Shown: positions 7,268 to 31,731 of the stretch, piece after piece
Layout of the letters: every line of letters starts with the position of its first letter
Numbering within the stretch: the stretch's first letter is position 1
Source of the DNA: Cytophagales bacterium
Lineage (GTDB): Bacteria; Bacteroidota; Bacteroidia; Cytophagales; VRUD01
NCBI GenBank assembly: GCA_019456305.1
Contig: VRUD01000013.1
Location: forward strand, 1,594 to 65,593
DNA: 64,000 bases
Direction of reading: 5' to 3'
The notes under the pieces: generated by a model
The model's input: the letters and a program-made list of their open reading frames with translations, nothing else
What the model was told of the DNA's origin: nothing
Database searches by the model: none
Position numbers and translations under genes: made by a program

Positions 7268-9634
7268 ATGAAAACTTCAACATCTAATTCCGACCTGTCT
7301 GCTCCCGATGGTATCGGGACAGGCGAACAGGCAGGAAAAAATTTCTTCTCCTTTCCGGAATTGTCAGGAGTAAAGAAATTAGCAGCAGCCGTAGTAATTC
7401 TTTTATGCGGACTGACTATCAGCTATAAAGCAAATGCACAATGTTTTGCAGGCTTTTACTATTTTATAGATACTGCTACCAATACTGTCTCGTTTCTTGA
7501 TACGTCATATTCTCCTGTAGCGCTAATAAACAGTTGGTATTGGGATTTTGGAGATGGCTTCGTTGATAGTATTCAAAACCCTACGCATATTTATGCTGTT
7601 GCCGATACTTACTACGTATGTCAAACCATCTGGGATGATAGCGCTTGTACAAATACTTTGTGTATATGGGTAATAACAGGAGCAGGTAGTGTTTGCACTA
7701 ATCCTCCTGCTGCTGGTTTTACTTACAGCGCTTCCAACCTAACGGTAAATTTCACTGATCTTTCTACACCGGCAGTATGTATTACAAGCTGGTTATGGGA
7801 TTTTGGGGATGGCAATACAGATACCATCCAAAACCCATCTCATACCTATGCAGCAGTCGGAACGTATAATGTTTGTTTAATCATTTCAACCTTTGCGGGA
7901 ATTGACACGTTATGTTATTCGAATGTAACAGTAGTCGGTGGTAGTGGTTGTTCTGCAGGCTTCAGCTATTCGGTAGATTCTACCAATACTGCCTGGTTCA
8001 CTGATACATCATCCGGAACTGGCGGAGTAATTGCCTGGTATTGGGATTTTGGTGATGGCAGCGCTGACTCTCTTCAACAAAATCCGTCACATACTTATGC
8101 TGTTGCTGATACTTACTGGGTATGCCTAACCATCTGGGACAGCAGCAACTGTACAAATATCTGGTGTACCACTGTAATAACAACCATTATTAATTGCAAT
8201 AATCCTCCTGTTGCTAATTTTACTTACACCATTCCAAGTCCGTATACAGCAAATTTTTTTGATGCCTCAACACCCGTAGCATGCATTACAAGCTGGTCAT
8301 GGGATTTTGGTGACGGCAATACAGAGACCATCCAAAACCCATCACATACCTATGCTGTAAACGGTAGTTATATCGTTTGTTTAATCACTTCAACCATCGG
8401 AGGAAGTGACACTGTATGTATGAGTGTAACAGTGGTTGGTACTTGTTTTGCAGCCTTCAGCTATTGGGTAGATTCTACCAATACTGCCTGGTTTACTGAT
8501 TCGTCATATACTTGGACGATGCCACCGCAGGTATGGAGTTGGGCCTGGGATTTTGGAGATGGAGATACTTCTGCCTTACAGAATCCTACACACTTTTATG
8601 CTGTTGCTGATACTTACTGGGTATGCTTAACAATCCTGGTGGATAGTGCTTGTACAGATACGTGGTGCACGATGGTACTAGCCAATGGTGTACCTTGTCA
8701 ACGTACCATATCAGGCCAGGTATCAGACAGCGCAGGCGCAATCATTAGCGGAACAGTTGATCTTATAAATTATAGTCCTGTTCCCGGACAAATGACGATA
8801 GCTGCCACTACCGTACTTGATAGTTTATTACCAGGATATTATACCTTTACAAATGTATCTCAGGGGCAATACCTTATAAGAGCGGAAGGTGACAGCTTAT
8901 TGTATCCTAATACTGTTCTAACTTATTATGACAGCACCAACCACTGGCAAAATGCAACAACCGTGGATGCATCATCAGTGTGTGATACCACCATCATTGC
9001 TAATATCCAACTTGTAGAATTTCCTACTAATATTGGCCCGGCCAAAATAAGCGGGCAGATAACATCATCAGGCCCGTTTAAAGACGGTAAAAACCCTATC
9101 GACCCGGTGCCAGGTATTGATATAGTAGTTGAAGAAATTGCCACAGACAAACTAATAGCTGGTACGACTACTGATGGTTTGGGATTTTATTATTTTGAGA
9201 ATATACCCCTCGGAGATTATAGACTCTATGTGGATATTACCGGACTTCCGATGGATTCAACTTATTATTTCAGCGTAACCAATGCTGATACACTATTTAC
9301 AAACCTTGATTTTTTTGTAGATTCTGTATCTATTACCCTTACTCCATTAACATCTGTTCAGGAAAATCTGAATGATCACACTATAAAAATTTATCCGAAT
9401 CCATATAAAGATTTTACCAACATTGAGTTTACACTGAAAGAAACAAGCAGTGTTTCCCTTGAGGTATATAATATCTTAGGAGCTAAAATAAATACGATTG
9501 AAAACAGTAAAAAGCAACCCGGACATCACAACTATAAATTCAGTGTCAAAGATCTGGGATATCCTGCGGGACTATATCTTATTAAATTAAATATTGATCT
9601 TAACAGCTATTCATTAAGGATTTTAGAGTTTTAA
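7268..9634 (+). CDS. secreted PKD-repeat protein with a T9SS type A C-terminal sorting domain
   Basis: There are five WDFGDG...QNP(S/T)H(T/I/F)YA PKD-like modules. A CarboxypepD_reg-like region follows, and the C-terminus (IYPNPYKDFTNIEF...GLYLIKL) is typical of Por_Secre_tail. Confidence 0.8.
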   Translation: MKTSTSNSDLSAPDGIGTGEQAGKNFFSFPELSGVKKLAAAVVILLCGLTISYKANAQCFAGFYYFIDTATNTVSFLDTSYSPVALINSWYWDFGDGFVDSIQNPTHIYAVADTYYVCQTIWDDSACTNTLCIWVITGAGSVCTNPPAAGFTYSASNLTVNFTDLSTPAVCITSWLWDFGDGNTDTIQNPSHTYAAVGTYNVCLIISTFAGIDTLCYSNVTVVGGSGCSAGFSYSVDSTNTAWFTDTSSGTGGVIAWYWDFGDGSADSLQQNPSHTYAVADTYWVCLTIWDSSNCTNIWCTTVITTIINCNNPPVANFTYTIPSPYTANFFDASTPVACITSWSWDFGDGNTETIQNPSHTYAVNGSYIVCLITSTIGGSDTVCMSVTVVGTCFAAFSYWVDSTNTAWFTDSSYTWTMPPQVWSWAWDFGDGDTSALQNPTHFYAVADTYWVCLTILVDSACTDTWCTMVLANGVPCQRTISGQVSDSAGAIISGTVDLINYSPVPGQMTIAATTVLDSLLPGYYTFTNVSQGQYLIRAEGDSLLYPNTVLTYYDSTNHWQNATTVDASSVCDTTIIANIQLVEFPTNIGPAKISGQITSSGPFKDGKNPIDPVPGIDIVVEEIATDKLIAGTTTDGLGFYYFENIPLGDYRLYVDITGLPMDSTYYFSVTNADTLFTNLDFFVDSVSITLTPLTSVQENLNDHTIKIYPNPYKDFTNIEFTLKETSSVSLEVYNILGAKINTIENSKKQPGHHNYKFSVKDLGYPAGLYLIKLNIDLNSYSLRILEF

Positions 9635-22655: not shown

Positions 22656-22991
22656 TCACATATTTATAGTCTTAACATTTGCGACACTAGTATAAGTAAT
22701 ACTGTTTTTGTATCTTGATTTTTTTTCAACCAAGTCTAACAGACTACGTAAATTCTCATTTAATTTAATAAACCTTACCTTTTTGCCAAGCAAATTTAAT
22801 TTAGTCCTATGGCTGTGCAATTCGTCAAAAAAGGATCTTGTTGCATAAGATATTTCAGAAAAGTCCAGATTGATGTTATTCTCAGTTGATTTCGAGAGAA
22901 TATCAAATAGATCACGTGCTGCCTGTCGGGTAATTAAACCCGAGGCATTAAATAGTTGACTGATATTTATTACTTCATTTGACATAGTCAT
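22656..22991 (-). CDS. STAS-like domain protein (DUF4325)
   Basis: The core LDFSEISYATRSFFDEL and the 111-aa size match the DUF4325 pattern (DF.gV...s.SF.DE). Confidence 0.65.
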   Translation of the reverse strand: MTMSNEVINISQLFNASGLITRQAARDLFDILSKSTENNINLDFSEISYATRSFFDELHSHRTKLNLLGKKVRFIKLNENLRSLLDLVEKKSRYKNSITYTSVANVKTINM

Positions 22992-23502: not shown

Positions 23503-23727
23503 ATGAAAACAAAAAGAGAAAGATTTGAAATTATTGCTTCAAATAGAGTTCAAAAGATTATTGATACTCTTGATAGCTTGAGTAAGTGTTCTAACAGAAA
23601 TAACTATGAATATAATGAGATAGATATAAGAAAGATGGAAAAAGTATTCAAGGAAAAAATGAATGAGGTATTAGCTTTATTCAATAATGGTCTCAAGAAA
23701 GGGTATAAAACAGAATTTAAATTTTGA
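23503..23727 (+). CDS. 74-aa helical hypothetical protein, first gene of the GHKL operon
   Basis: The ORF is clean, Lys/Glu-rich and predicted helical by eye. It lies 54 nt upstream of the GHKL gene. Confidence 0.4.
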   Translation: MKTKRERFEIIASNRVQKIIDTLDSLSKCSNRNNYEYNEIDIRKMEKVFKEKMNEVLALFNNGLKKGYKTEFKF

Positions 23728-23781
23728 AGCAATAAATAATCGAGCATTACATGCTATATTACATCAATACTTGTATAGAAT

Positions 23782-26253
23782 ATGAACAATGAACAGGTCA
23801 AGCAATTGTGTCTGAGTCTAATGACGGCAGATACCGAACGAGATATTATTTCAATTCTCAAACAACATGGTTATTGGGAGAGGTCAGAGTTTTGGCGATA
23901 TTATGGAGACAAAGAGAATAATTACAGTGCTGCAGGTAACCAGGCTGACGAAGCTGAGGCAGCACTGGTGGAGAAAATTACGAATTCCAGGGATGCGATA
24001 TTGATGAACGAGTGTTGGATGAAAGCTATAGAGCCAAAAAGCGATGAGGCACCGTCTGGCGTAAAGGAGGCTGTTGCAGAATTTTTTGAAGAAAACCCAA
24101 AGAACGAATTGGCGGGGCAAATAAAAGAATGGTCAAAAGAGAAAAGGCGTGAAATTGCTAAAAACATATCTGTTTATATAACTGGAAATAAGCCAGCAAA
24201 GGATTTGTTTCCTTGCATTAATATTGCCGATAAAGGTGAAGGTCAAACACCACTCGAAATACCTAATACCATACTCTCATTAGGAGAATCTATTAAAAGG
24301 AAGATACCCTTTGTGCATGGGAAATGGAATATGGGTGGCACTGCAGCATTGGTTTATTGTGGAAAGGCCAATTTACAATTAATTGTAAGCAGAAGGAATC
24401 AGCAGTTGATCAAGGATGAGGAACGGAAAGAAACTGATAATAATTGGGGTTTTACTATTGTGAGAAGGGAAGACCCAGTTGGCAAAGAAACATCATCAAC
24501 GTACAAATATCTAGCACCTGTTGAAGCAGAAGCAAACCCTGGTAAGGGTGAATTATTAAACTTTAATAGCAACACCTTCCCAATTTTTGCAAAATATAAT
24601 GAGCCGTATTCTGTGAAATCAGAGTGGGGTACACTTGTAAAACTATATGAATACGAGACCAGGTACAAGCAAAATGTGCAGGGAAGTGGAGGACTGTTGC
24701 GCCCTTTAGATTTGTTGGCACCTGATCTTGGCTTGCCCTTCCGTCTGCATGAATGCCGATACGAAGGAACTCCTGGCTCTTTTGAACATCAAGTTAATGG
24801 CCTGCGTGTAAGGTTATACGATGACAGAGGAAATGCGCTCGAACCAGGATATCCAACTTCGCATAATACCGTAACTAATGGAGAACCATTTTCATTCTCT
24901 TTATATGCCTTTAAGGATGACAAGGCAAAAACATACCGTGACAGCGAGAAAGGTGTCATTTTTACTCTCAATGGTCAAAGTCAGGGATGGTTTGATGATA
25001 GAATTTTCACAAGAAATAAGGTTAGTTTGGGATTCTTGAAGAACTCCTTGCTGTTAATTGTAGATTGTAGTGGTTTAAGCTATCGGGCGCAGGAGAAACT
25101 ATTTGTAAATGATAGGGTGCATATAAGAAAGGGGCCATATAGAGATAAAATCGAAGATGAAATAATCGACTATCTTGCTAATCACCAGGGGTTAAGCGAC
25201 TTGCAAGAAGAAAGGAAAAGGCAATTGCAAGCTGACAAACTTGATGATTCAAAGCCATTGGAAACGGTGCTGTCAAGTGTGTTCAAACATTCAAGTGCCC
25301 TATCAAAAATATTCCTGAAAGGTCAACGGCTTTCCAACGCTTTTAGATCCGAAAGGGTTGAGGGTAAAAACAAGGATTACAAAGGCCTTCCGTATCCGAC
25401 ATATTTCAAATTCAAAAAACTTGATTATGGTAAAGTGCTTGCTCGTGATGCATTTCAGTCGACCAGGTCAAGAATTGGATTTGAAACCGATGCTGAAAAT
25501 GATTATCTGATAAGAAAAACTAATCCCGGTAGCTTCAAGTTGTTCCTGAAGGATGAAAAAGGAAACCTCATTGAGGCAAAGCAAAAGCACGTAGTCTATG
25601 GATTGAGCTTACTAAATGGCATTGCGATCGTGAATATTGATATTGATTCACAAATGAAAACAGGGGATAAGGTACGCTTTATGCTTGAAGTGACTGATCC
25701 TATGCGAATTGCGGAACCCCCATTCCAAAATGAGTTTGTACTGACTATTTATCCGAAACCAACCAAAAGAACAGGGGGTAAATCAATGAGGTCTAAACCA
25801 CCAACCACTATTCCAGGTAAAGATAGAGATAAATCGGGTGGGGTTAAATTTCCAAAAATTTACCAAGTCAACGAAAGTGAATGGGGTAAGCATGAGTTTA
25901 ATAAGTTCTCGGCAATGAGAGTTGTTAAATCCAAAATTAATGAAAACGGTAAGAATGAGGTTGAATTTACATTTTATGTGAACATAGATAATATCTACTT
26001 GCAGCATGAGGTAAAGGATAATATTGAGGATAAAAAAACAACAGAGGCTTATTTCAAATATGGTATGGCTTTGCTTGGCATATCAATTATTTATGACGAC
26101 CAGCAGAACAAGGATGAACAAAATAAGTATGAGGGTATTGAAGAAAGAATCGCTGGATTTTCAAGGGCAATGGGACCAATGATAATACCCATGATTAAAG
26201 AATTTGGAGACCTTGACTTAAAAGATGAACTGCTTGAACAGTTAGCTGATTAA
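23782..26253 (+). CDS. GHKL (Bergerat-fold) ATPase, MORC/paraMORC-like, with an unassigned ~500-aa C-terminal region
   Basis: The N-box EKITNSRDA is at aa 64-72 (nt 23971-23997). The G1 box DKGEG is at aa 150-154 (nt 24229-24243). The G2-like GKWNMGG is at aa 180-186 (nt 24319-24339). Confidence 0.75.
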   Translation: MNNEQVKQLCLSLMTADTERDIISILKQHGYWERSEFWRYYGDKENNYSAAGNQADEAEAALVEKITNSRDAILMNECWMKAIEPKSDEAPSGVKEAVAEFFEENPKNELAGQIKEWSKEKRREIAKNISVYITGNKPAKDLFPCINIADKGEGQTPLEIPNTILSLGESIKRKIPFVHGKWNMGGTAALVYCGKANLQLIVSRRNQQLIKDEERKETDNNWGFTIVRREDPVGKETSSTYKYLAPVEAEANPGKGELLNFNSNTFPIFAKYNEPYSVKSEWGTLVKLYEYETRYKQNVQGSGGLLRPLDLLAPDLGLPFRLHECRYEGTPGSFEHQVNGLRVRLYDDRGNALEPGYPTSHNTVTNGEPFSFSLYAFKDDKAKTYRDSEKGVIFTLNGQSQGWFDDRIFTRNKVSLGFLKNSLLLIVDCSGLSYRAQEKLFVNDRVHIRKGPYRDKIEDEIIDYLANHQGLSDLQEERKRQLQADKLDDSKPLETVLSSVFKHSSALSKIFLKGQRLSNAFRSERVEGKNKDYKGLPYPTYFKFKKLDYGKVLARDAFQSTRSRIGFETDAENDYLIRKTNPGSFKLFLKDEKGNLIEAKQKHVVYGLSLLNGIAIVNIDIDSQMKTGDKVRFMLEVTDPMRIAEPPFQNEFVLTIYPKPTKRTGGKSMRSKPPTTIPGKDRDKSGGVKFPKIYQVNESEWGKHEFNKFSAMRVVKSKINENGKNEVEFTFYVNIDNIYLQHEVKDNIEDKKTTEAYFKYGMALLGISIIYDDQQNKDEQNKYEGIEERIAGFSRAMGPMIIPMIKEFGDLDLKDELLEQLAD

Positions 26254-27411
26254 CCTGTGAAATAGTACAACCTCATTTGAACTGGGAGTTTTGCCTTTAT
26301 TTTGTGTATACCATTTGCGGTTGGGTACTTCTCTCCAAATTCTTGATTTGAATGGCTTAATTTCATAGAACCCAGCCAATTTCATCACTTCAAGATACTT
26401 AGGTAGCTGCCATTCAGGTTTGGAAAACGCTAATACCTGGACAATAAGGGTTTCGTTGTCACAAACCTTTGCGACAGAAGAAAAGGTATCCTTGATATTT
26501 TGGAAGTAATTAATAAGCCCTTCCTGCTGCCGATTGCCCATCGTGTAATGAGTCAACCCATGCCCGTCTAAACTATTTGCAATCCAGAAAGGTGCCGGGG
26601 TTTCTTTGCTACCATGTATTTGCCAACGGTGATAGACCACGTGAATACCTGGGTAAGGTGGAGATGTGAGAACCAACTTTGGTGAGTTCGATTTTTTAAG
26701 CGTTCTTGACCGTTTGATTTCAATTGCTGGTTTATTGATTTGCAAAGACATAACATCGTTTTTATGTTCAGCAAGTGCGAATTTGAGTTGGGTAGAGCCA
26801 ACGAGCATTTGCTCTATTGTAGTCCATAATTTAGCACGGAATCTCTTTGCGGAAGGGATTTCTTTTTTTGAGTCAAGTGCCCATTGCCCTGTCTTCAACA
26901 AAACACAACGCAAAAAATTCTTTACTTTTACTGTAGTCCTTACTTTTTCAAGGTCATTGATAAACTGTTCGGATAATTTGCGAATTGGCCATGTGGTTTT
27001 GTTAGATAAGTTTCTTTGGTAGCCAGCTTCAATCCATTGTTCAGGTCGTTCTGAGTGAGATTTGCAGTTCATTTTTTTAATTGTCAAGGCAGTCCACTTT
27101 TTAACAAATTCAGTTTCTTTCTCTGTTAATGGGGAAGTTTTGACTGAGGCAATAAAGTACGCCAAACTGCTTATGTCAAACCCAATGGCAGGTCTATTAA
27201 GAATCTGCGCTTCAACTAAGGTTGTTCCTCCACCCATGAAAGGGTCGAGAATAAAGTCTCCAGGTTCAGTGAATGATTCAATTGCTTCTCTGGCGAACAA
27301 TGGTGAGAATCGAGCCGGATAATTATAGAAATCATGGGTGTATCCTGATACCGTACTTCGGTCATTAACGGCTTTTACAAAAGTATCCAGATTTATTCCT
27401 TTTGCTATCAT
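26242..27411 (-). CDS. DNA methyltransferase, alpha-class motif order, SPPY catalytic motif (N4-cytosine or N6-adenine)
   Basis: Motif I DPFMGGGTT is at aa 56-64 (nt 27220-27246). Motif IV SPPY is at aa 250-253 (nt 26653-26664). About 190 aa lie between them, presumably the target-recognition domain. Confidence 0.85.
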   Translation of the reverse strand: MIAKGINLDTFVKAVNDRSTVSGYTHDFYNYPARFSPLFAREAIESFTEPGDFILDPFMGGGTTLVEAQILNRPAIGFDISSLAYFIASVKTSPLTEKETEFVKKWTALTIKKMNCKSHSERPEQWIEAGYQRNLSNKTTWPIRKLSEQFINDLEKVRTTVKVKNFLRCVLLKTGQWALDSKKEIPSAKRFRAKLWTTIEQMLVGSTQLKFALAEHKNDVMSLQINKPAIEIKRSRTLKKSNSPKLVLTSPPYPGIHVVYHRWQIHGSKETPAPFWIANSLDGHGLTHYTMGNRQQEGLINYFQNIKDTFSSVAKVCDNETLIVQVLAFSKPEWQLPKYLEVMKLAGFYEIKPFKSRIWREVPNRKWYTQNKGKTPSSNEVVLFHRLIS

Positions 27412-27412
27412 G

Positions 27413-27616
27413 TTAGTTTTTTGTTGATACGAGTAGTTCTCTTATGTCCACATCTAGGATTCTTGCTATTTTTTTTAAATTTGTTAAATGCGGTTGTGAT
27501 TTATTGTTACAAATCGATGCAATGGAGGTGGTGCTTTTTCTAAGTTTCTCCGCAAGCCATTTTTGTGTTTTACCTTGAATTACAAGTATCTCCTTTATTC
27601 GATTGATACGCTCCAT
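27413..27616 (-). CDS. XRE/Cro-type HTH transcriptional regulator (C-protein-like)
   Basis: KTQKWLAEKLRKSTTSIASICNNKSQPHLTNLKKIARILDVDIRELL is a canonical HTH_3. Its stop lies 1 nt before the methyltransferase ATG. Confidence 0.85.
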   Translation of the reverse strand: MERINRIKEILVIQGKTQKWLAEKLRKSTTSIASICNNKSQPHLTNLKKIARILDVDIRELLVSTKN

Positions 27617-27635
27617 GATTTGTATATTGAATGTA

Positions 27636-27656
27636 AATATAAGTTCTGCTTATATT
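27636..27656. promoter_or_regulatory. candidate operator: inverted repeat aatataag-N5-cttatatt
   Basis: The 8-bp arms are perfect and lie 20 nt upstream of the HTH start. A third aatataag half-site sits at 27678-27685. Confidence 0.45.
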
Positions 27657-27675
27657 AATAGAAGCAAGAATTTCA

Positions 27676-27683
27676 CAAATATA
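27676..27683 (-). promoter_or_regulatory. candidate -7 box (TAtaTTTG on the minus strand) for the HTH-MTase operon
   Basis: The plus-strand caaatata reads tatatttg on the minus strand. It lies 60 nt upstream of the HTH ATG and overlaps the third half-site. Confidence 0.35.
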
Positions 27684-27844
27684 AGAATAATTAATGTTAA
27701 TAACTAATATTTGAATGTTGATAAAAGCAAGCTCTTTTGCAAAGTTTTGGTTTGCCTATCAACAACTTCCTGTTGGTATCTTGTATATCAGATTATTAAA
27801 ACCAGATGAAACATATTAACTTTGCATTCGTAGGATTCCAACTA

Positions 27845-28729
27845 ATGTATTACCGGAGAAAAATATTGCTTGCGTTGTTAGAGAAAATGGGCGGTAAGCT
27901 ACTGCCTACCGATATGCAAAAACTACTTTTCCTGTTTTGCGAAAGACAAAGGGAAAAGAACTACGAGTTTGTACCATACCGTTTCGGTGGTTTTTCCTTC
28001 CAGTCGTATGCCGACAAACGTACCCTTACAAAATATGGTTATTTAAGTGATGTGGACGGATGGGAACTGACCGATAAGGGCAGAAACTTCAGCAGTACAT
28101 TAAAAAATGAAGATCAAACTGCGTTGCAACAGGTTGCGGCAAGGTATGGCAAAATGCGGGGCAACCCATTGGTGAAGGAAGTTTACCGGAATTACCCGTA
28201 TTATGCCATTTACAGCGAAATATTGGAAAAGGTGCTGTCACAGGAAGAAATAAAGAAAGTGGAAGCGCAGAGGCCAAAAGAGAACAGCGAAGCGTTTTTT
28301 ACGATCGGCTACGAGGGTATCTCGCAGGAACGATATCTTAACAAACTGATAAAAAACAATGTGAAGCTGCTTTGTGATGTGCGGAAAAATCCGCTTAGCA
28401 TGAAGTACGGGTTTTCAAAAAATCAACTAAAAGATGCTTGCGAGCATGTCGGCATACAATATTTGCATATCCCTGATTTGGGAATTGTCCCGGAAAAGCG
28501 AAAGGAACTCAACACCAAAGAGGATTACGAAAGATTGTTTGAGGAATACGAGCGCACCACTTTGCGGGAAGAAAAGGAGTCGTTAGACCGGTTGCTGACT
28601 TTGTTGAAACAATACAAGCGGATTGCCATTACCTGTTTTGAAGCATGTGAAACGCAATGCCATAGAGGCAAGGTAGCCAAAACGTTGCAAAAAATGCCGG
28701 AATGGAAATATCCTGTAAAGCACCTGTAA
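27845..28729 (+). CDS. winged-helix-like N-terminal domain fused to a DUF488 domain
   Basis: The C-terminal half matches the DUF488 pattern (FFTIGYEG, LLCDVRKNPLS, GIQYLHIPDLG, ITCFEACETQCHRGKVA). I prefer the start at MYYRRKILLALLEK over the track start at 27806. Confidence 0.7.
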   Translation: MYYRRKILLALLEKMGGKLLPTDMQKLLFLFCERQREKNYEFVPYRFGGFSFQSYADKRTLTKYGYLSDVDGWELTDKGRNFSSTLKNEDQTALQQVAARYGKMRGNPLVKEVYRNYPYYAIYSEILEKVLSQEEIKKVEAQRPKENSEAFFTIGYEGISQERYLNKLIKNNVKLLCDVRKNPLSMKYGFSKNQLKDACEHVGIQYLHIPDLGIVPEKRKELNTKEDYERLFEEYERTTLREEKESLDRLLTLLKQYKRIAITCFEACETQCHRGKVAKTLQKMPEWKYPVKHL

Positions 28730-28730
28730 A

Positions 28731-29546
28731 ATGGCAAAACAACGCGTATTGATTACCGTCAAGACCTACCCGACCATTTCTAAAAAATACGATGAAATAG
28801 TTTGCACTGCCGGATTTACGGCAGAAGGCAAATGGATTCGTCTTTACCCGATTCCATTTCGCAAGCTGGATTACGTTCACCAGTACAAGAAGTACGATTG
28901 GGTGGAAATGGATTTAACCAAAAACACCAGTGATTTCAGGCCCGAAAGCTACCGGCCTGTTAATATAGATGTTGACGAACCTGTTAAAGTTGTTGGGCAT
29001 ATTGAAACAAAAGACAATTGGGCCGAACGGAAAAATATTGTATTGAATACGGTGTATGACGATTTAGAGCGATTGATTTTAGAAGCAAAGGATAAAAAGG
29101 TTTGTACTTCGCTTGCGGTTTTCAAGCCGACAAAAATTCATGATTTTATTTGCGAAGCAGTTGAACGGGAATGGGATAACAAGAAGAAAGAACAATTGTT
29201 ACAAATGAAACTGTTTGAGCAAAAGAGGGATTTTGAAGTTGTTCGGAAACTGCCCTACAAGTTCAGCTATGTGTTTGAAGATGTAAACGGCAAGAAACCA
29301 ACTTTGATGATAGAGGATTGGGAAATTGGCGCTTTATATTGGAACTGTCTTGCCCGCAATGAAGGTGATGAAAAAGCAGCTTGCAAGGAGGTAATAGCGA
29401 AATACTTTGATGATTTTGCCAAAACCAAAGACCTGTATTTCTTTTTAGGAACTACAAAAGTGAATCATTTTGTAGCAAAGAACCCTTTTATCATTATAGG
29501 AACTTTCCATCCTAAACCGGTAACTCAATTAAAATTAGACCTGTAA
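28731..29546 (+). CDS. 271-aa hypothetical protein, translationally coupled to the DUF488 gene
   Basis: The ATG follows the upstream stop by 1 nt. The ORF is clean with balanced composition. No family is recognised. Confidence 0.6.
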   Translation: MAKQRVLITVKTYPTISKKYDEIVCTAGFTAEGKWIRLYPIPFRKLDYVHQYKKYDWVEMDLTKNTSDFRPESYRPVNIDVDEPVKVVGHIETKDNWAERKNIVLNTVYDDLERLILEAKDKKVCTSLAVFKPTKIHDFICEAVEREWDNKKKEQLLQMKLFEQKRDFEVVRKLPYKFSYVFEDVNGKKPTLMIEDWEIGALYWNCLARNEGDEKAACKEVIAKYFDDFAKTKDLYFFLGTTKVNHFVAKNPFIIIGTFHPKPVTQLKLDL

Positions 29547-30717: not shown

Positions 30718-31731
30718 CTACTTTTTTCCTTTTAATTTTTTGACTTCCTGTTCCAATCGTTTCATTTCCTCTGCATCCAATGCTTCAATTTGTTGTTTAC
30801 GGAATGTTTTATATTCGTTTTCTGCCAGTTCCTTTGCCATTTTATGCGATATTCTGCCGGCATCCAACAGTATTTCCCGTTCGTTCAGTGTCAAAAAAGC
30901 ATTGAGTTTTTTCTCCCAGTCGTTCATGTACATAGATTTGCGGTTACGCGCCTGCAATTCTCCAAATGCTAAGTACTGTTCTACAATAAGATTCAATTCA
31001 GTCAGTTCATCCTGTGAAAGATAGTTTTTAGCTACGGCAACATCTGTTTTGCGGATTTTTCCTTCAGGGCTATTTTTCCATGAGGTAAGTCCCATGCTGG
31101 GCTTTTTTGCATTCGTACGCTTGTAAATTATTTCTGCTGCTGTATGACCGTGTATTGCCCAGTGCATTTTGTTTTGCACAGCGGCAAAAAACCTTTTGGC
31201 TTGTTCACTTTGGGTGTCATAATCAATGCTTGTGGTGTAAATATCTTTTATCTTAGCGTAGAAAATCTTTTCAGAGCTTCGGATGTCCCTGATTCTTTCT
31301 AATAGTTCATTAAAGTATTGATTTGTGTGGCCTGTTTCTTTAAGGCGTTCATCATTGAGGGTAAAACCTTTGATAATGTATTCTCTGAGACGTTGGGTAG
31401 CCCAGATCCTAAACTGTGTGCCCCTATGCGACTTCACCCTGTAACCAACGGAAATTATAACGTCTAAGTTGTAGTATTCCAGGTCGCGTGAAACCTCTCT
31501 GCTGCCCTCAGTTTGAACTGTTCGGAAATTCCGAACAGTTGCTTTGTCCTGGTGAAGCTCGCCTTCTTCAAAAACATTGCGAATGTGCTCGCTGATAGTG
31601 CTTTTTGCCTTCCCGAAAAGCTCGGAAAGCTGGTTTAGCGTAAGCCAAACCGTTTCATTGTCTAACCGCACCTCAATTTTGGTTTGTCCGTCTTCTGTTT
31701 GGTACAATAATATTTCCGATTTACTTTTCAT
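30718..31731 (-). CDS. rhuM: RhuM-family protein (Fic/DOC-related virulence-associated family)
   Basis: ILLYQTEDGQTKIEVRLDNETVWLTLNQLSELF...NLDVIISVGYRVKSHRGTQFRIWATQRLREY is the characteristic RhuM N-terminal region. Confidence 0.85.
   Translation of the reverse strand: MKSKSEILLYQTEDGQTKIEVRLDNETVWLTLNQLSELFGKAKSTISEHIRNVFEEGELHQDKATVRNFRTVQTEGSREVSRDLEYYNLDVIISVGYRVKSHRGTQFRIWATQRLREYIIKGFTLNDERLKETGHTNQYFNELLERIRDIRSSEKIFYAKIKDIYTTSIDYDTQSEQAKRFFAAVQNKMHWAIHGHTAAEIIYKRTNAKKPSMGLTSWKNSPEGKIRKTDVAVAKNYLSQDELTELNLIVEQYLAFGELQARNRKSMYMNDWEKKLNAFLTLNEREILLDAGRISHKMAKELAENEYKTFRKQQIEALDAEEMKRLEQEVKKLKGKK

What the first reader, a model, noticed from the sequence alone, without database searches (positions are those of the whole stretch)
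27845..29546. Translationally coupled winged-helix-DUF488 fusion plus 271-aa orphan, divergent from the HTH-methyltransferase operon
The stop at 28729 and the start at 28731 are 1 nt apart. DUF488 is a widespread domain whose function I cannot assign. Here it is fused to an N-terminal region that looks like a winged helix by eye (YYRRKILLALLEKMGG...), and it pairs with a protein for which I recognise no family. Its position opposite a C-protein-like HTH and a methyltransferase is where a restriction or effector component would normally sit. This pair, rather than or together with the GHKL ATPase, could be the effector arm.
Basis: inference. Interest (0 to 1): 0.7.

Follow-up and report, generated by a model that had tools for sequence, protein, structure and literature searches.

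The report
Mobile DUF488 plus dual-OB gene pair
The two tightly joined genes are a self-contained, horizontally spreading pair (a phosphatase-like DUF488 enzyme and a two-OB-fold single-stranded-DNA-binder-like protein) that PADLOC already lists as the untested phage-defence candidate PDC-M19, and they are not the missing restriction arm of the neighbouring methyltransferase.

Summary
A 294-aa gene (27845-28729) and a 271-aa gene (28731-29546) lie 1 nt apart, divergent from an HTH-methyltransferase operon.

**What the proteins are**
- Both match PADLOC PDC-M19A and PDC-M19B over their full length (E about 1e-123 and 1e-125). PDC-M19 is an untested defence candidate.
- Protein A has a C-terminal DUF488 domain with an intact Cys/Cys-His-Arg pocket. 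Its N-terminal 148 residues look like the Panacea / DarG C-terminal antitoxin domain, with a winged-helix-like core.
- Protein B is not an orphan. It is a divergent branch of Pfam DuOB (dual OB fold): hhalign probability 100%, E 3.6e-58.

**How the pair behaves**
- A sits directly upstream of B in 78 of 78 genome loci, with a gap of -1 to +3 nt in 72.
- No other neighbour recurs in more than 6 of 80 loci. The window's methyltransferase recurs in none.
- That methyltransferase instead pairs with the 823-aa protein in 5 of 5 loci.
- Distant B homologues on plasmids and in Gordonia phages, and DuOB-positive relatives on metagenome contigs, still sit beside a stand-alone DUF488 gene.

**Verdict**
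- This is an autonomous mobile conflict cassette that probably acts on single-stranded DNA, perhaps like a toxin-antitoxin pair.
- The link to the methyltransferase is not supported.
- The function is untested.

The parts
27617..27844 (.). Intergenic spacer of 228 bp shared with the divergent HTH-methyltransferase operon. It is the presumed promoter region of the A-B bicistron.
   Evidence: Gene layout. The promoter role is inferred. The sigma-70-type scan found no more sites than in shuffled sequence, and that scan does not cover Bacteroidota promoters. The palindrome at 27647-27666 and the direct repeats lie close to the HTH gene and more likely serve that gene.
27845..28729 (+). Gene A, 294 aa: PADLOC PDC-M19A, an N-terminal helical domain fused to DUF488.
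   Evidence: - PDLC04505, E 1.8e-123, residues 1-294 of 294.
- 7403 homologues, about 294 aa each.
- AlphaFold2 mean pLDDT 92.3.
27845..28288 (+). A, residues 1-148: Panacea (DUF4065) / DarG-C-terminal-like helical domain with a winged-helix-like core. It is the fastest-evolving part of the pair.
   Evidence: - The best Foldseek PDB hits are 7yk3_D and 7yk3_B, the DarTG complex (E 1.1e-3, probability 1.00, target TM 0.55). MarR-family hits are weak.
- Weak Pfam hits among 24 family members: DUF7078 in 9, SocA_Panacea in 3, best E about 2e-4. The window protein itself reaches only E 0.09.
- DUF4065 proteins are reported to be homologous to the DarG C-terminal domain, PMC13621843.
- Median identity across loci is 40%.
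28328..28684 (+). A, residues 162-280: DUF488 domain (PF04343), borderline for the 'active' DUF488-N3a subclade (PF22751).
   Evidence: - PF04343, E 7e-27.
- PF22751 scores 25.8 bits in the full protein and 27.4 bits with the domain alone, against a cut-off of 27.
- The database's own precomputed annotation lists PF22751 for this protein.
28634..28666 (+). A, residues 264-274 (C-FEACETQ-CHR): invariant Cys264, Cys272, His273 and Arg274. The stretch runs from the end of a beta-strand, through a loop, to the start of a helix, and is the presumed catalytic pocket.
   Evidence: - These are invariant columns in 40 sequences.
- The model has a strand at 259-264 and a helix at 274-282.
- The same C...CHR pattern is kept in the stand-alone Calothrix DUF488 partner.
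- The catalytic role is inferred.
28727..28733 (+). Stop-start junction TAA-A-ATG, a 1-nt gap. Translational coupling of A and B is inferred.
   Evidence: Read directly from the sequence. The gap is -1 to +3 nt in 72 of 78 related loci.
28731..29546 (+). Gene B, 271 aa: PADLOC PDC-M19B, a divergent member of the DuOB (dual OB-containing) superfamily.
   Evidence: - PDLC04508, E 2.5e-125.
- hhalign against relatives that pass the Pfam DuOB cut-off: probability 100%, E 3.6e-58, 253 columns.
- Foldseek hits are OB-fold and single-stranded-DNA-binding proteins: Teb1 AB, Rim1 SSB, RMI1, Pot1, IF1/eIF1A and baculovirus LEF-3.
- AlphaFold2 mean pLDDT 79.8.
28932..28949 (+). B, residues 68-73 (D-F-R-P-E-S): Asp68, Arg70, Glu72 and Ser73 are invariant across bacterial, archaeal and phage relatives.
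   Evidence: Alignment A5 of relatives at 26-42% identity and alignment A1. What the residues do is unknown.
29316..29324 (+). B, residues 196-198 (D-W-E): an invariant motif across the whole family.
   Evidence: Alignments A1, A5 and A6. What the motif does is unknown.

Best explanation
The two genes form an autonomous, horizontally mobile two-gene cassette of the DUF488-DuOB type, listed in PADLOC as candidate PDC-M19. The cassette is functionally independent of the adjacent HTH-methyltransferase.

**Protein B.** B is a roughly 270-aa protein with a dual OB fold, like single-stranded-DNA-binding proteins. It carries an invariant polar cluster (Asp68/Arg70/Glu72/Ser73, Arg100, Asp196-Trp-Glu198).

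**Protein A.** A joins a DUF488 domain to an N-terminal domain that resembles the Panacea / DarG C-terminal toxin-binding antitoxin domain. DUF488 belongs to the rhodanese-phosphatase superfamily and here keeps its invariant Cys264...Cys272-His273-Arg274 pocket.

**Proposed mechanism (inferred).** The cassette works in conflicts between the host and mobile elements, as phage defence, exclusion or abortive infection. It acts on single-stranded DNA or DNA ends and is organised like a toxin-antitoxin pair.
- B is the effector that engages single-stranded DNA.
- A, made first and in fixed ratio through the 1-nt stop-start junction, restrains B in two ways. It binds B through its N-terminal domain. 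It also undoes or pre-empts B's effect through a phosphate or sugar-phosphate reaction catalysed by DUF488.
- This would parallel the two-pronged action of DarG in the DarTG system.

**Shown.** The identities, the strict pairing, the mobility and the independence from the methyltransferase.

**Inferred.** The single-stranded-DNA target, which protein is effector and which is neutraliser, and the defence role.
For: **Identity**
- Full-length PADLOC PDC-M19A and PDC-M19B matches.
- DUF488, E 7e-27.
- B is homologous to relatives that pass the DuOB cut-off: hhalign probability 100%, E 3.6e-58.
- B's Foldseek hits are OB-fold and single-stranded-DNA-binding proteins.

**Pairing**
- A is directly upstream of B in 78 of 78 genome loci, with a gap mostly of 1-3 nt.
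- A is upstream of B in 16 of 18 viral contigs.
- B homologues at 27-38% identity sit beside a stand-alone DUF488 gene in seven plasmid contexts: Rhizobium, Streptomyces, Burkholderia, Arthrobacter, Pseudomonas, Sulfitobacter and Calothrix. The genes are sometimes convergent and sometimes co-directional.
- The same adjacency holds in seven Gordonia phage records.
- It also holds at two DuOB-positive relatives.

**Autonomy**
- No third gene family recurs in more than 6 of 80 loci.
- The window's methyltransferase, 823-aa protein and RhuM homologues appear in none of the 80 loci, and the HTH in one.
- The methyltransferase pairs with the 823-aa protein in 5 of 5 loci.

**Mobility and conflict context**
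- The pair is found on conjugative plasmids, in prophages next to the repressor and integrase, and on viral contigs with capsid, terminase and integrase genes.
- Some chromosomal neighbours are type I, IIG or ISP restriction-modification genes and mads genes.
- PDC candidates were defined by being embedded in BREX, DISARM or type I restriction-modification systems.

**Toxin-antitoxin-like polarity**
- A's N-terminal domain gives its best PDB hit to the DarTG complex 7yk3 and weak SocA_Panacea hits.
- DUF4065/Panacea is an antitoxin domain (PMC8832971) and is reported to be homologous to the DarG C-terminal domain (PMC13621843).
- The gene order is A first, then B, with a coupled junction.
- B is more conserved than A in 72 of 72 loci (63% against 47%). 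A's N-terminal domain diverges fastest, at 40%.
- B almost never occurs without a DUF488 neighbour.

**DUF488 pocket**
- Invariant Cys, Cys-His-Arg on a strand-loop-helix.
- Weak Foldseek hits to PTP-fold phosphatases.
- A sister family, DUF4326, is predicted to process phosphates on ADP-ribose-derived sugars and is fused to Macro and NADAR domains (PMC9503650).
Against: - No experiment exists. PDC-M19 is one of 145 untested candidates, and I found no paper that mentions it.
- B has no recognisable catalytic fold. It may be only a binder.
- The core family pairs DuOB with a stand-alone DUF488 of about 148 aa that lacks the Panacea-like domain. The antitoxin-like domain is therefore an accessory of this branch, not a defining part.
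- The Panacea assignment is weak. The window protein scores 14 bits against a cut-off of 25.7, and the Foldseek hit has E about 1e-3.
- In many plasmids the two genes are convergent, which is unusual for type II toxin-antitoxin operons.
- Many chromosomal copies sit among housekeeping genes with no defence neighbours.
- The plasmid copies near ssb, radC and DUF932 genes would also fit a role in plasmid establishment or anti-defence.
- B homologues are about 63% identical across phyla, which is unusually conserved for a defence gene.
Confidence: 0.4

Rival explanations
1. The polarity is reversed. B (DuOB) is the sensor or targeting subunit that recognises single-stranded DNA or DNA ends of an invader. 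The DUF488 domain of A is the effector enzyme, which removes or transfers a terminal phosphate or sugar-phosphate on nucleic-acid ends or on a nucleotide. That blocks replication, ligation or packaging. The N-terminal domain of A binds DNA or B.
For: - DUF488 is the only domain in the pair with an enzyme-like invariant pocket.
- B's fold matches non-catalytic OB-fold and single-stranded-DNA-binding proteins.
- The core family needs only DUF488 plus DuOB.
- From memory: Burroughs and Aravind 2023 (NAR Genom Bioinform lqad029; not held in the library) predict DNA-end processing in conflict systems for the RapZ-C/DUF488/DUF4326 clade.
- Weak winged-helix (MarR-like) similarity in the N-terminal domain of A.
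Against: - It does not explain the Panacea / DarG-C-terminal-like domain.
- It does not explain why B is more conserved than A in every locus.
- It does not explain the 13 invariant columns in B, 8 of them polar or charged, which is more than a plain binder would need.
Confidence: 0.3
2. The pair is a helper for mobile elements rather than a host defence. It would be an establishment, anti-defence or DNA-processing function that protects or processes the element's own single-stranded DNA during conjugative entry, replication or prophage induction.
For: - The pair is carried by conjugative and mobilisable plasmids close to ssb, radC and DUF932 genes. It is also carried by temperate Gordonia phages and by viral contigs.
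- A DUF488 protein lies near radC on Methanoperedens plasmids.
- The dual OB fold resembles single-stranded-DNA-binding proteins such as baculovirus LEF-3.
Against: - Many copies are isolated two-gene insertions in chromosomes with no other mobile-element genes nearby.
- PADLOC recovered the family embedded in restriction-modification, BREX or DISARM loci.
- In the Gordonia phages the pair lies in the lysogeny module right after the immunity repressor, a position typical of prophage-expressed exclusion genes.
Confidence: 0.17
3. The pair is the restriction or effector arm of a methylation-linked system formed with the divergent C-protein-like HTH and the methyltransferase, alone or together with the 823-aa protein.
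For: - The only evidence is the local layout: divergent orientation across a 228-bp spacer.
- PDC candidates are sometimes embedded in restriction-modification systems.
Against: - None of 80 genome loci and none of 18 viral loci with the pair has a homologue of this methyltransferase.
- Immediate neighbours of the pair are heterogeneous.
- The methyltransferase is convergently paired with the 823-aa protein in 5 of 5 related loci, none of which has the pair.
- Neither A nor B has a nuclease fold.
Confidence: 0.03
4. The pair is a housekeeping DNA-repair or metabolic function of the cell.
For: - High sequence conservation: B homologues are about 63% identical across phyla.
- Some copies lie among housekeeping genes.
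Against: - The distribution is patchy. These include Bacteroidota, Verrucomicrobia, Alphaproteobacteria, Bacillota and Leptospiraceae.
- No neighbourhood is conserved.
- The pair is present on plasmids and phages.
- Two contigs of one Flavobacterium genome bin each carry a copy (L026, L049).
Confidence: 0.05

Closest known systems
PADLOC-DB v2 candidate system PDC-M19 (PDC-M19A + PDC-M19B)
   Same: - Both proteins match the models end to end (E 1.8e-123 and 2.5e-125).
- The genes are adjacent, in the A-then-B order.
- This window holds an ordinary member of the family.
   Different: Nothing structural differs. The family itself is an untested candidate predicted by 'guilt by embedding', and no paper in the library mentions it.
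Pfam DUF488 (PF04343) / DUF488-N3a (PF22751) paired with DuOB (PF22557)
   Same: - A's C-terminal domain is DUF488, borderline for N3a.
- B is homologous to proteins that pass the DuOB cut-off.
- Those DuOB-positive proteins are preceded by a 148-aa DUF488-N3a gene.
   Different: - The Pfam DuOB model does not detect B directly.
- A carries an extra N-terminal domain of about 148 aa that the minimal pairs lack.
- The window branch lacks the Cys...Cys-x-Gly-His insert found in many relatives.
DarTG toxin-antitoxin / phage-defence system (DarG = macrodomain + C-terminal DarT-binding domain)
   Same: - A combines a small-molecule or nucleic-acid-processing enzyme domain with a domain resembling the DarG C-terminal domain. 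Its best PDB hit is 7yk3.
- DarG neutralises its toxin both enzymatically and by binding (PMC8832971; PMC13621843).
- The partner protein is associated with single-stranded DNA.
   Different: - The domain order is reversed.
- The enzyme domain is DUF488, not Macro or NADAR.
- B is a dual OB fold, not an ADP-ribosyltransferase. No ART-fold hit appeared.
- This is an analogy, not membership.
PanAT toxin-antitoxin systems (Panacea / DUF4065 antitoxins)
   Same: - A two-gene, tightly coupled module.
- The first gene carries a Panacea-like domain.
- Panacea antitoxins pair with many unrelated toxins.
   Different: - The match to PF13274 is below the cut-off.
- Fusion of Panacea to DUF488, or pairing with an OB-fold toxin, is not mentioned in that paper.
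- Toxicity of B is untested.
Type II restriction-modification system with a controller (C) protein
   Same: The neighbouring HTH and methyltransferase genes, together with the convergent 823-aa gene, look like such a module.
   Different: The A-B pair is not co-conserved with that module and has no nuclease fold. It is a separate cassette that happens to lie next to it.

Membership tests
PADLOC PDC-M19 (candidate defence system) | Protein A matches a PDC-M19A model | tested here: met
   PDLC04505, E 1.8e-123, residues 1-294 of 294.
PADLOC PDC-M19 (candidate defence system) | Protein B matches a PDC-M19B model and is adjacent to A | tested here: met
   PDLC04508, E 2.5e-125, residues 1-269 of 269. 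The genes are 1 nt apart.
PADLOC PDC-M19 (candidate defence system) | Confers protection against phage | not testable with these tools
   PDC systems are untested candidates. No paper in the library mentions PDC-M19.
Pfam DUF488 (PF04343) | Score above the gathering cut-off | tested here: met
   94.9 bits against 22.2, residues 162-280.
Pfam DUF488-N3a (PF22751, 'active' subclade) | Score above the gathering cut-off of 27 bits | tested here: inconclusive
   25.8 bits for the full protein and 27.4 bits for the domain alone. The precomputed annotation lists PF22751 for this protein.
Rhodanese-phosphatase superfamily (Cys-based phosphotransfer fold) | A catalytic Cys at the end of a beta-strand, followed by a phosphate-binding loop that ends in Arg at the start of a helix | tested here: inconclusive
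   - Invariant Cys264 ends strand 259-264, and Cys272-His273-Arg274 begin helix 274-282. The spacing is Cys-X9-Arg, not the canonical Cys-X5-Arg.
- Foldseek hits to PTP-fold phosphatases are weak (target TM 0.42-0.45, E 0.27-0.43).
- The superfamily assignment of DUF488 rests on my memory of Burroughs and Aravind 2023, which is not held in the library.
Pfam DuOB (PF22557, dual OB-containing domain) | Direct match to the Pfam model | tested here: not met
   No hit for B or for any of 38 close relatives, even at E up to 5-10.
Pfam DuOB (PF22557, dual OB-containing domain) | Homology to proteins that pass the DuOB cut-off | tested here: met
   - hhalign of alignment A1 against A6: probability 100%, E 3.6e-58, 253 columns.
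- Five A6 members were rescanned and score 30-34 bits against a cut-off of 27.
- 22 of the 120 best hits to the broad-family profile carry PF22557.
Pfam DuOB (PF22557, dual OB-containing domain) | Two OB folds in the structure | tested here: inconclusive
Panacea / DUF4065 antitoxin domain (PF13274) | Score above the gathering cut-off of 25.7 bits | tested here: not met
   The window protein scores 14.2 bits, E 0.09. Three of 24 relatives hit weakly, best E 1.8e-4.
Panacea / DUF4065 antitoxin domain (PF13274) | Structural similarity to the DarG C-terminal domain, which is reported to be homologous to DUF4065 | tested here: inconclusive
   The top Foldseek PDB hits are 7yk3_D and 7yk3_B: E 1.1e-3, probability 1.00, target TM 0.55. 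The homology is stated in PMC13621843.
Type II toxin-antitoxin module | A compact bicistron with tight coupling, in which the toxin is rarely found without its partner | tested here: met
   The gap is 1 nt. Adjacency holds in 78 of 78 genome loci and 16 of 18 viral loci. Exceptions are pSOG2 and L107.
Type II toxin-antitoxin module | One product is toxic and the other neutralises it | not testable with these tools
   This needs expression experiments.
DarTG | The toxin is a DarT-type ADP-ribosyltransferase and the antitoxin carries a Macro or NADAR domain | tested here: not met
   B's hits are OB folds, with no ART fold. A has DUF488, not Macro or NADAR.
   - None of 80 genome loci and none of 18 viral loci with the pair has this methyltransferase.
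- The methyltransferase pairs with the 823-aa protein in 5 of 5 loci.
[quoted passage not shown] | A winged-helix fold | tested here: inconclusive
   - Foldseek hits to MarR-family regulators: 2hr3_B (probability 0.97, E 0.16) and 5hso_C.
- The helix and strand order in the model is compatible with a winged helix.
- No HTH Pfam family is detected.

The most novel reading that the evidence does not exclude
The DUF488-DuOB pair is a new class of toxin-antitoxin or abortive-infection system directed at single-stranded DNA.
- The dual-OB protein, with its invariant Asp-x-Arg-x-Glu-Ser and Asp-Trp-Glu clusters, would be a previously unrecognised toxin that binds or modifies single-stranded DNA.
- DUF488 would be a new kind of reversing or neutralising enzyme, a Cys-based phosphotransfer domain.
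- In this branch DUF488 is fused to a Panacea / DarG-like toxin-binding domain, so A would neutralise B both enzymatically and by binding, as DarG does to DarT.

This would give DUF488, a domain with no tested function that I could find, its first biochemical role.
Probability: 0.22. Interest if true: 0.75.

Novelty: new member of a known kind. Interest (0 to 1): 0.42.

Why it matters
**What the analysis corrects**
- It separates two modules that sit side by side. One is an RM-like set: the 74-aa gene, the 823-aa gene, the methyltransferase and the HTH. The other is an independent DUF488-DuOB cassette.
- It gives the 'orphan' protein a family: DuOB, PDC-M19B.

**Why the family is worth testing**
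- It is large. There are 7799 homologues of B at 90% clustering and 2608 cluster representatives at 50%.
- It is found in bacteria, on archaeal plasmids and in phages.
- It is highly conserved, small and entirely uncharacterised.
- A simple toxicity, rescue and phage-challenge experiment could give DUF488 its first function. It could also show what a dual-OB protein does in conflicts between hosts and mobile elements.

The instance in this window is an ordinary member of the family and adds nothing unusual.

Tried and rejected
**Domain searches that found nothing**
- Pfam scans of B as a whole and as two halves, at E up to 10, gave no hit. NCBIfam gave nothing for A or B.
- PDB sequence-profile searches with A, with its N-terminal domain and with B gave only noise.

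**Ideas about B that I dropped**
- B's C-terminal half as an ADP-ribosyltransferase, because TS...EDWE recalls the R-S-ExE motif. Foldseek gave only OB-fold hits and the predicted secondary structure does not fit.
- A PD-(D/E)xK nuclease reading of E169...K173. The region has low model confidence and no structural hit supports it.

**Tools and papers that were unavailable**
- Burroughs and Aravind 2023, which I believe defines the DUF488 clade and probably DuOB, is not held. What I say about it is from memory.
- Literature searches for PDC-M19 and DuOB found nothing relevant. The DUF488 search found only incidental mentions.

**A third conserved partner gene**
- I looked for one and found none.

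**DUF488 partners that were not found**
- The 168-aa gene next to the B homologue on Sulfolobus plasmid pSOG2.
- The 166-aa gene next to the B homologue on viral contig L107.
- Neither is detectably DUF488, and the two are not alike.

**Other checks that led nowhere**
- Gordonia phage gp44, the immunity repressor, is not an A homologue.
- The sigma-70 promoter and terminator scan was uninformative.
- There is no tRNA gene and no composition anomaly marking an island boundary.


Full report
**1. Observation**

- ORF A ends with TAA at 28727-28729 and ORF B starts with ATG at 28731, so the junction reads TAA-A-ATG. B ends at 29546.
- The longest ORF for A begins at 27806.
- A contains DUF488: PF04343, residues 162-280, E 7e-27.
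- B has no direct Pfam or NCBIfam match.
- The HTH_3 gene (27413-27616) and the N6/N4 methyltransferase (26242-27411) lie on the opposite strand, 228 bp from A.

**2. What A is**

- A matches PADLOC model PDC-M19A over its whole length: PDLC04505, E 1.8e-123, residues 1-294 of 294. It also matches PHROG 14939, a family of unknown function.
- The AlphaFold2 model is confident, with mean pLDDT 92.3.
- *C-terminal half.* This is DUF488, borderline for the 'active' N3a subclade PF22751. It scores 25.8 to 27.4 bits against a cut-off of 27, and the precomputed annotation lists the subclade for this protein.
  - Forty homologues share invariant residues: TIGYEG, LCDVRxN..S.K.GFS, Y.H.P.LG, and Cys264-Phe-Glu...Cys272-His273-Arg274.
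  - Cys264 ends a beta-strand and Arg274 starts a helix. This strand-Cys-loop-Arg-helix layout recalls the Cys-X5-Arg phosphate cradle of PTP and rhodanese enzymes, which is established knowledge, but the loop here is longer.
  - Foldseek gives only weak PTP-fold hits.
[quoted passage not shown] That paper is not held in the library.
  - The same laboratory's 2022 paper predicts that the sister family DUF4326 processes phosphates on ADP-ribose-derived sugars.
- *N-terminal 148 residues.* The best PDB matches are chains of the M. tuberculosis DarTG complex 7yk3: E 1.1e-3, probability 1.00, target TM 0.55. Weaker MarR-type winged-helix hits follow.
  - Family members give weak Pfam hits to DUF7078 (9 of 24) and to SocA_Panacea (3 of 24, best E 1.8e-4). 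The window protein itself reaches only E 0.09.
  - A 2026 paper states that DUF4065 (Panacea) proteins are homologous to the DarT-binding C-terminal domain of DarG in 7YK3.
  - Panacea is an antitoxin domain that pairs with many different toxins.
It remains a weak one.

**3. What B is**

- B matches PADLOC PDC-M19B: PDLC04508, E 2.5e-125. It also matches PHROG 25907.
- It has 7799 homologues in the 90%-clustered collection and 2608 representatives at 50% clustering. The best 150 representatives are all stand-alone proteins of at most 330 aa, most of them about 260-290 aa, with no domain fusions.
- The structure model (pLDDT 79.8) matches OB-fold and single-stranded-DNA-binding proteins only weakly. 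These are Teb1 AB, Rim1 SSB, RMI1, Pot1, IF1/eIF1A and baculovirus LEF-3.
- Distant homologues from a Gordonia phage and a Sulfolobus plasmid gave sub-threshold hits to Pfam DuOB, the 'Dual OB-containing domain'.
- A profile of distant members retrieved 120 full-length relatives, 22 of them annotated PF22557. The five of these that I rescanned pass the Pfam cut-off.
- hhalign of B's family against them gives probability 100%, E 3.6e-58, over 253 columns.
- B is therefore a divergent branch of the DuOB superfamily, not an orphan.
- Across bacteria, archaea and phage the invariant residues are Arg37, Pro40, Asp68, Arg70, Glu72, Ser73, Arg100, Pro133, Gln158, Asp196-Trp197-Glu198 and Gly240. That is more than a plain binder would seem to need.
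- Many relatives carry a Cys...Cys-x-Gly-His insert that the window branch lacks.

**4. The pair is a unit and is independent of the methyltransferase**

- The genome scan found at least 578 relatives of B, and I examined the best 80 loci.
  - An A homologue lies directly upstream of B in all 78 loci that have upstream DNA.
  - The gaps are -1 to +3 nt in 72 of those.
- No other gene family recurs in more than 6 of the 80 loci.
- Immediate neighbours mix housekeeping genes with some type I, IIG and ISP restriction-modification genes, mads genes and nuclease genes.
- Homologues of the window's methyltransferase, 823-aa protein, 74-aa protein, STAS-like protein and RhuM are found in none of the 80 loci. 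The HTH is found in one.
- Homologues of the 823-aa protein are followed by a convergent homologue of this methyltransferase in 5 of 5 metagenome loci, and none of those has A or B.
- The methyltransferase's partner is therefore the 823-aa protein.

**5. A deep and mobile association**

- B homologues at only 27-38% identity still sit next to a DUF488 gene. In these cases it is usually a stand-alone gene of 150-230 aa.
  - The hosts are plasmids of Rhizobium, Streptomyces, Burkholderia, Arthrobacter, Pseudomonas, Sulfitobacter and Calothrix.
  - The DUF488 gene is often convergent with overlapping 3' ends, and sometimes co-directional on either side.
- In seven Gordonia phage records (five distinct phages), the B homologue (gp43) follows the immunity repressor within the lysogeny module. 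The convergent gp42 is DUF488, although one record labels it 'HipA toxin'.
- DuOB-positive relatives are preceded by a 148-aa DUF488-N3a gene. One example lies beside a type ISP enzyme and a TraG gene, and another lies among housekeeping genes.
- Eighteen IMG/VR viral contigs carry B, and 16 of them have A upstream. Their neighbours include capsid, terminase, portal and integrase genes.
- There are two exceptions without a detectable DUF488 neighbour: pSOG2 and L107.
- B is more conserved than A in 72 of 72 loci, with medians of 63% and 47%. Within A, the N-terminal domain is at 40% and DUF488 at 55%.

**6. Mechanism (inferred)**

- The data show a two-gene cassette that moves between genomes, plasmids and phages.
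- PADLOC lists it as one of 145 untested candidates found embedded in BREX, DISARM or type I restriction-modification loci.
- I favour a conflict module acting on single-stranded DNA or DNA ends, with a toxin-antitoxin-like logic.
  - B, the dual-OB protein with a conserved polar cluster, would be the effector.
  - A, encoded first and coupled to B, would be the neutraliser. It would act through its Panacea / DarG-like domain and through the DUF488 Cys-His-Arg pocket.
  - This parallels the dual action of DarG.
- The support is circumstantial:
  - the domain resemblance;
  - the gene order;
  - B's higher conservation;
  - the near-absence of B without DUF488.
- The main weaknesses are these:
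  - B has no catalytic fold.
  - The minimal family lacks the Panacea-like domain.
  - Convergent gene orders are common on plasmids.
  - There are no experiments.

**7. Rival explanations**

- *Reversed polarity.* B senses single-stranded DNA and DUF488 is the effector. This is almost as likely.
- *A mobile-element establishment or anti-defence role.* The plasmid copies near ssb, radC and DUF932 suggest this.
- *The restriction-modification effector model.* Comparative genomics contradicts it.
- *A housekeeping role.* The patchy, mobile distribution contradicts it.

**8. Novelty**

- The family is already catalogued as PDC-M19 in PADLOC and as the DUF488 and DuOB domains in Pfam.
- This window holds a typical, intact member.
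- The function is unknown.
- This analysis adds four things:
  - the separation from the RM-like module;
  - the link between B and DuOB;
  - the DarG / Panacea-like reading of A's N-terminus;
  - the breadth of the DUF488-DuOB association.

**9. Limits**

- No model of the A-B complex could be run.
- I did not compute a defence-island enrichment score.

Noticed in passing
window 23503-27616 (74-aa ORF 23503-23727 +; 823-aa ORF 23782-26253 +; methyltransferase 26242-27411 -; HTH 27413-27616 -): The 823-aa protein and the methyltransferase form a conserved convergent pair. In 5 of 5 metagenome loci, a methyltransferase homologue (43-58% identity) follows the 823-aa homologue (66-67% identity) on the opposite strand. 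A homologue of the 74-aa ORF lies upstream in 3 loci. This looks like a separate RM-like module with an uncharacterised large subunit.
   Followed up: partly
window 27627-27731: The spacer next to the HTH gene contains a palindrome, TGCTTATATTAATAGAAGCA (27647-27666). It also has two pairs of direct repeats: TTGAATGTnnATAnAAG at 27627 and 27711, and ATnTTnATAnAAGCAAG at 27652 and 27715. These could be operator sites for the C-protein-like HTH.
   Followed up: no
window 30718-31731 (-): A RhuM-family protein (PF13310, E 2e-114). It also matches the single-gene PADLOC candidate PDC-S05 (E 1e-144). Together with the RM-like module and PDC-M19, it makes 22.6-31.7 kb look like a small defence island.
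   Followed up: no
window 27923-28222 (A residues 27-126): A's N-terminal domain matches the C-terminal end (positions 436-547 of 554) of one PADLOC type I specificity-subunit model, PDLC03184, at E 1.2e-5. Some HsdS proteins may therefore carry a related extra domain.
   Followed up: no
L082 (Gordonia phage Nymphadora NC_031061.1), genes 42-44: Gene 42, annotated 'HipA toxin' in one record, is in fact a DUF488 homologue (32% identity to A residues 151-281). Gene 43 is the B / DuOB-like protein. It starts at the last base of the immunity repressor gene 44, between the cro gene and the integrase gene.
   Followed up: partly
L083 (Sulfolobus islandicus plasmid pSOG2) 4998-6358; L107 (IMG/VR contig) 7448-8762: Two B homologues lack a detectable DUF488 neighbour. 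Each sits beside an unrelated ORF of 166-168 aa with no recognisable family. These may be cases of partner swapping.
   Followed up: partly
alignments A5 and A6 (relatives of B); absent at window B residues about 183-190: Many DuOB-like relatives, including Gordonia phage, Sulfolobus, Streptomyces, Arthrobacter and the PF22557-positive set, carry a Cys-x(4-5)-Cys-x-Gly-His insert that looks like a metal-binding knuckle. The Bacteroidota-type branch in this window has lost it.
   Followed up: no
L089 (Sulfitobacter plasmid) and L087 (Arthrobacter FB24 plasmid 3): On these plasmids the DUF488-DuOB pair lies within a few kb of an ssb gene. On the Sulfitobacter plasmid it is also near radC and DUF932 genes. 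That gene set is reminiscent of plasmid leading regions, which hints at a role at DNA entry.
   Followed up: no
L026 and L049 (two contigs of one Flavobacterium genome bin, GL53_Up_metabinner_19): The same genome bin carries two copies of the B gene on different short contigs. This could be a duplication or a mixture of strains.
   Followed up: no
window 22656-22991 (-): A 111-aa ORF with a weak, sub-threshold match to DUF4325 (STAS-like), E 0.0036, at the left edge of the island.
   Followed up: no
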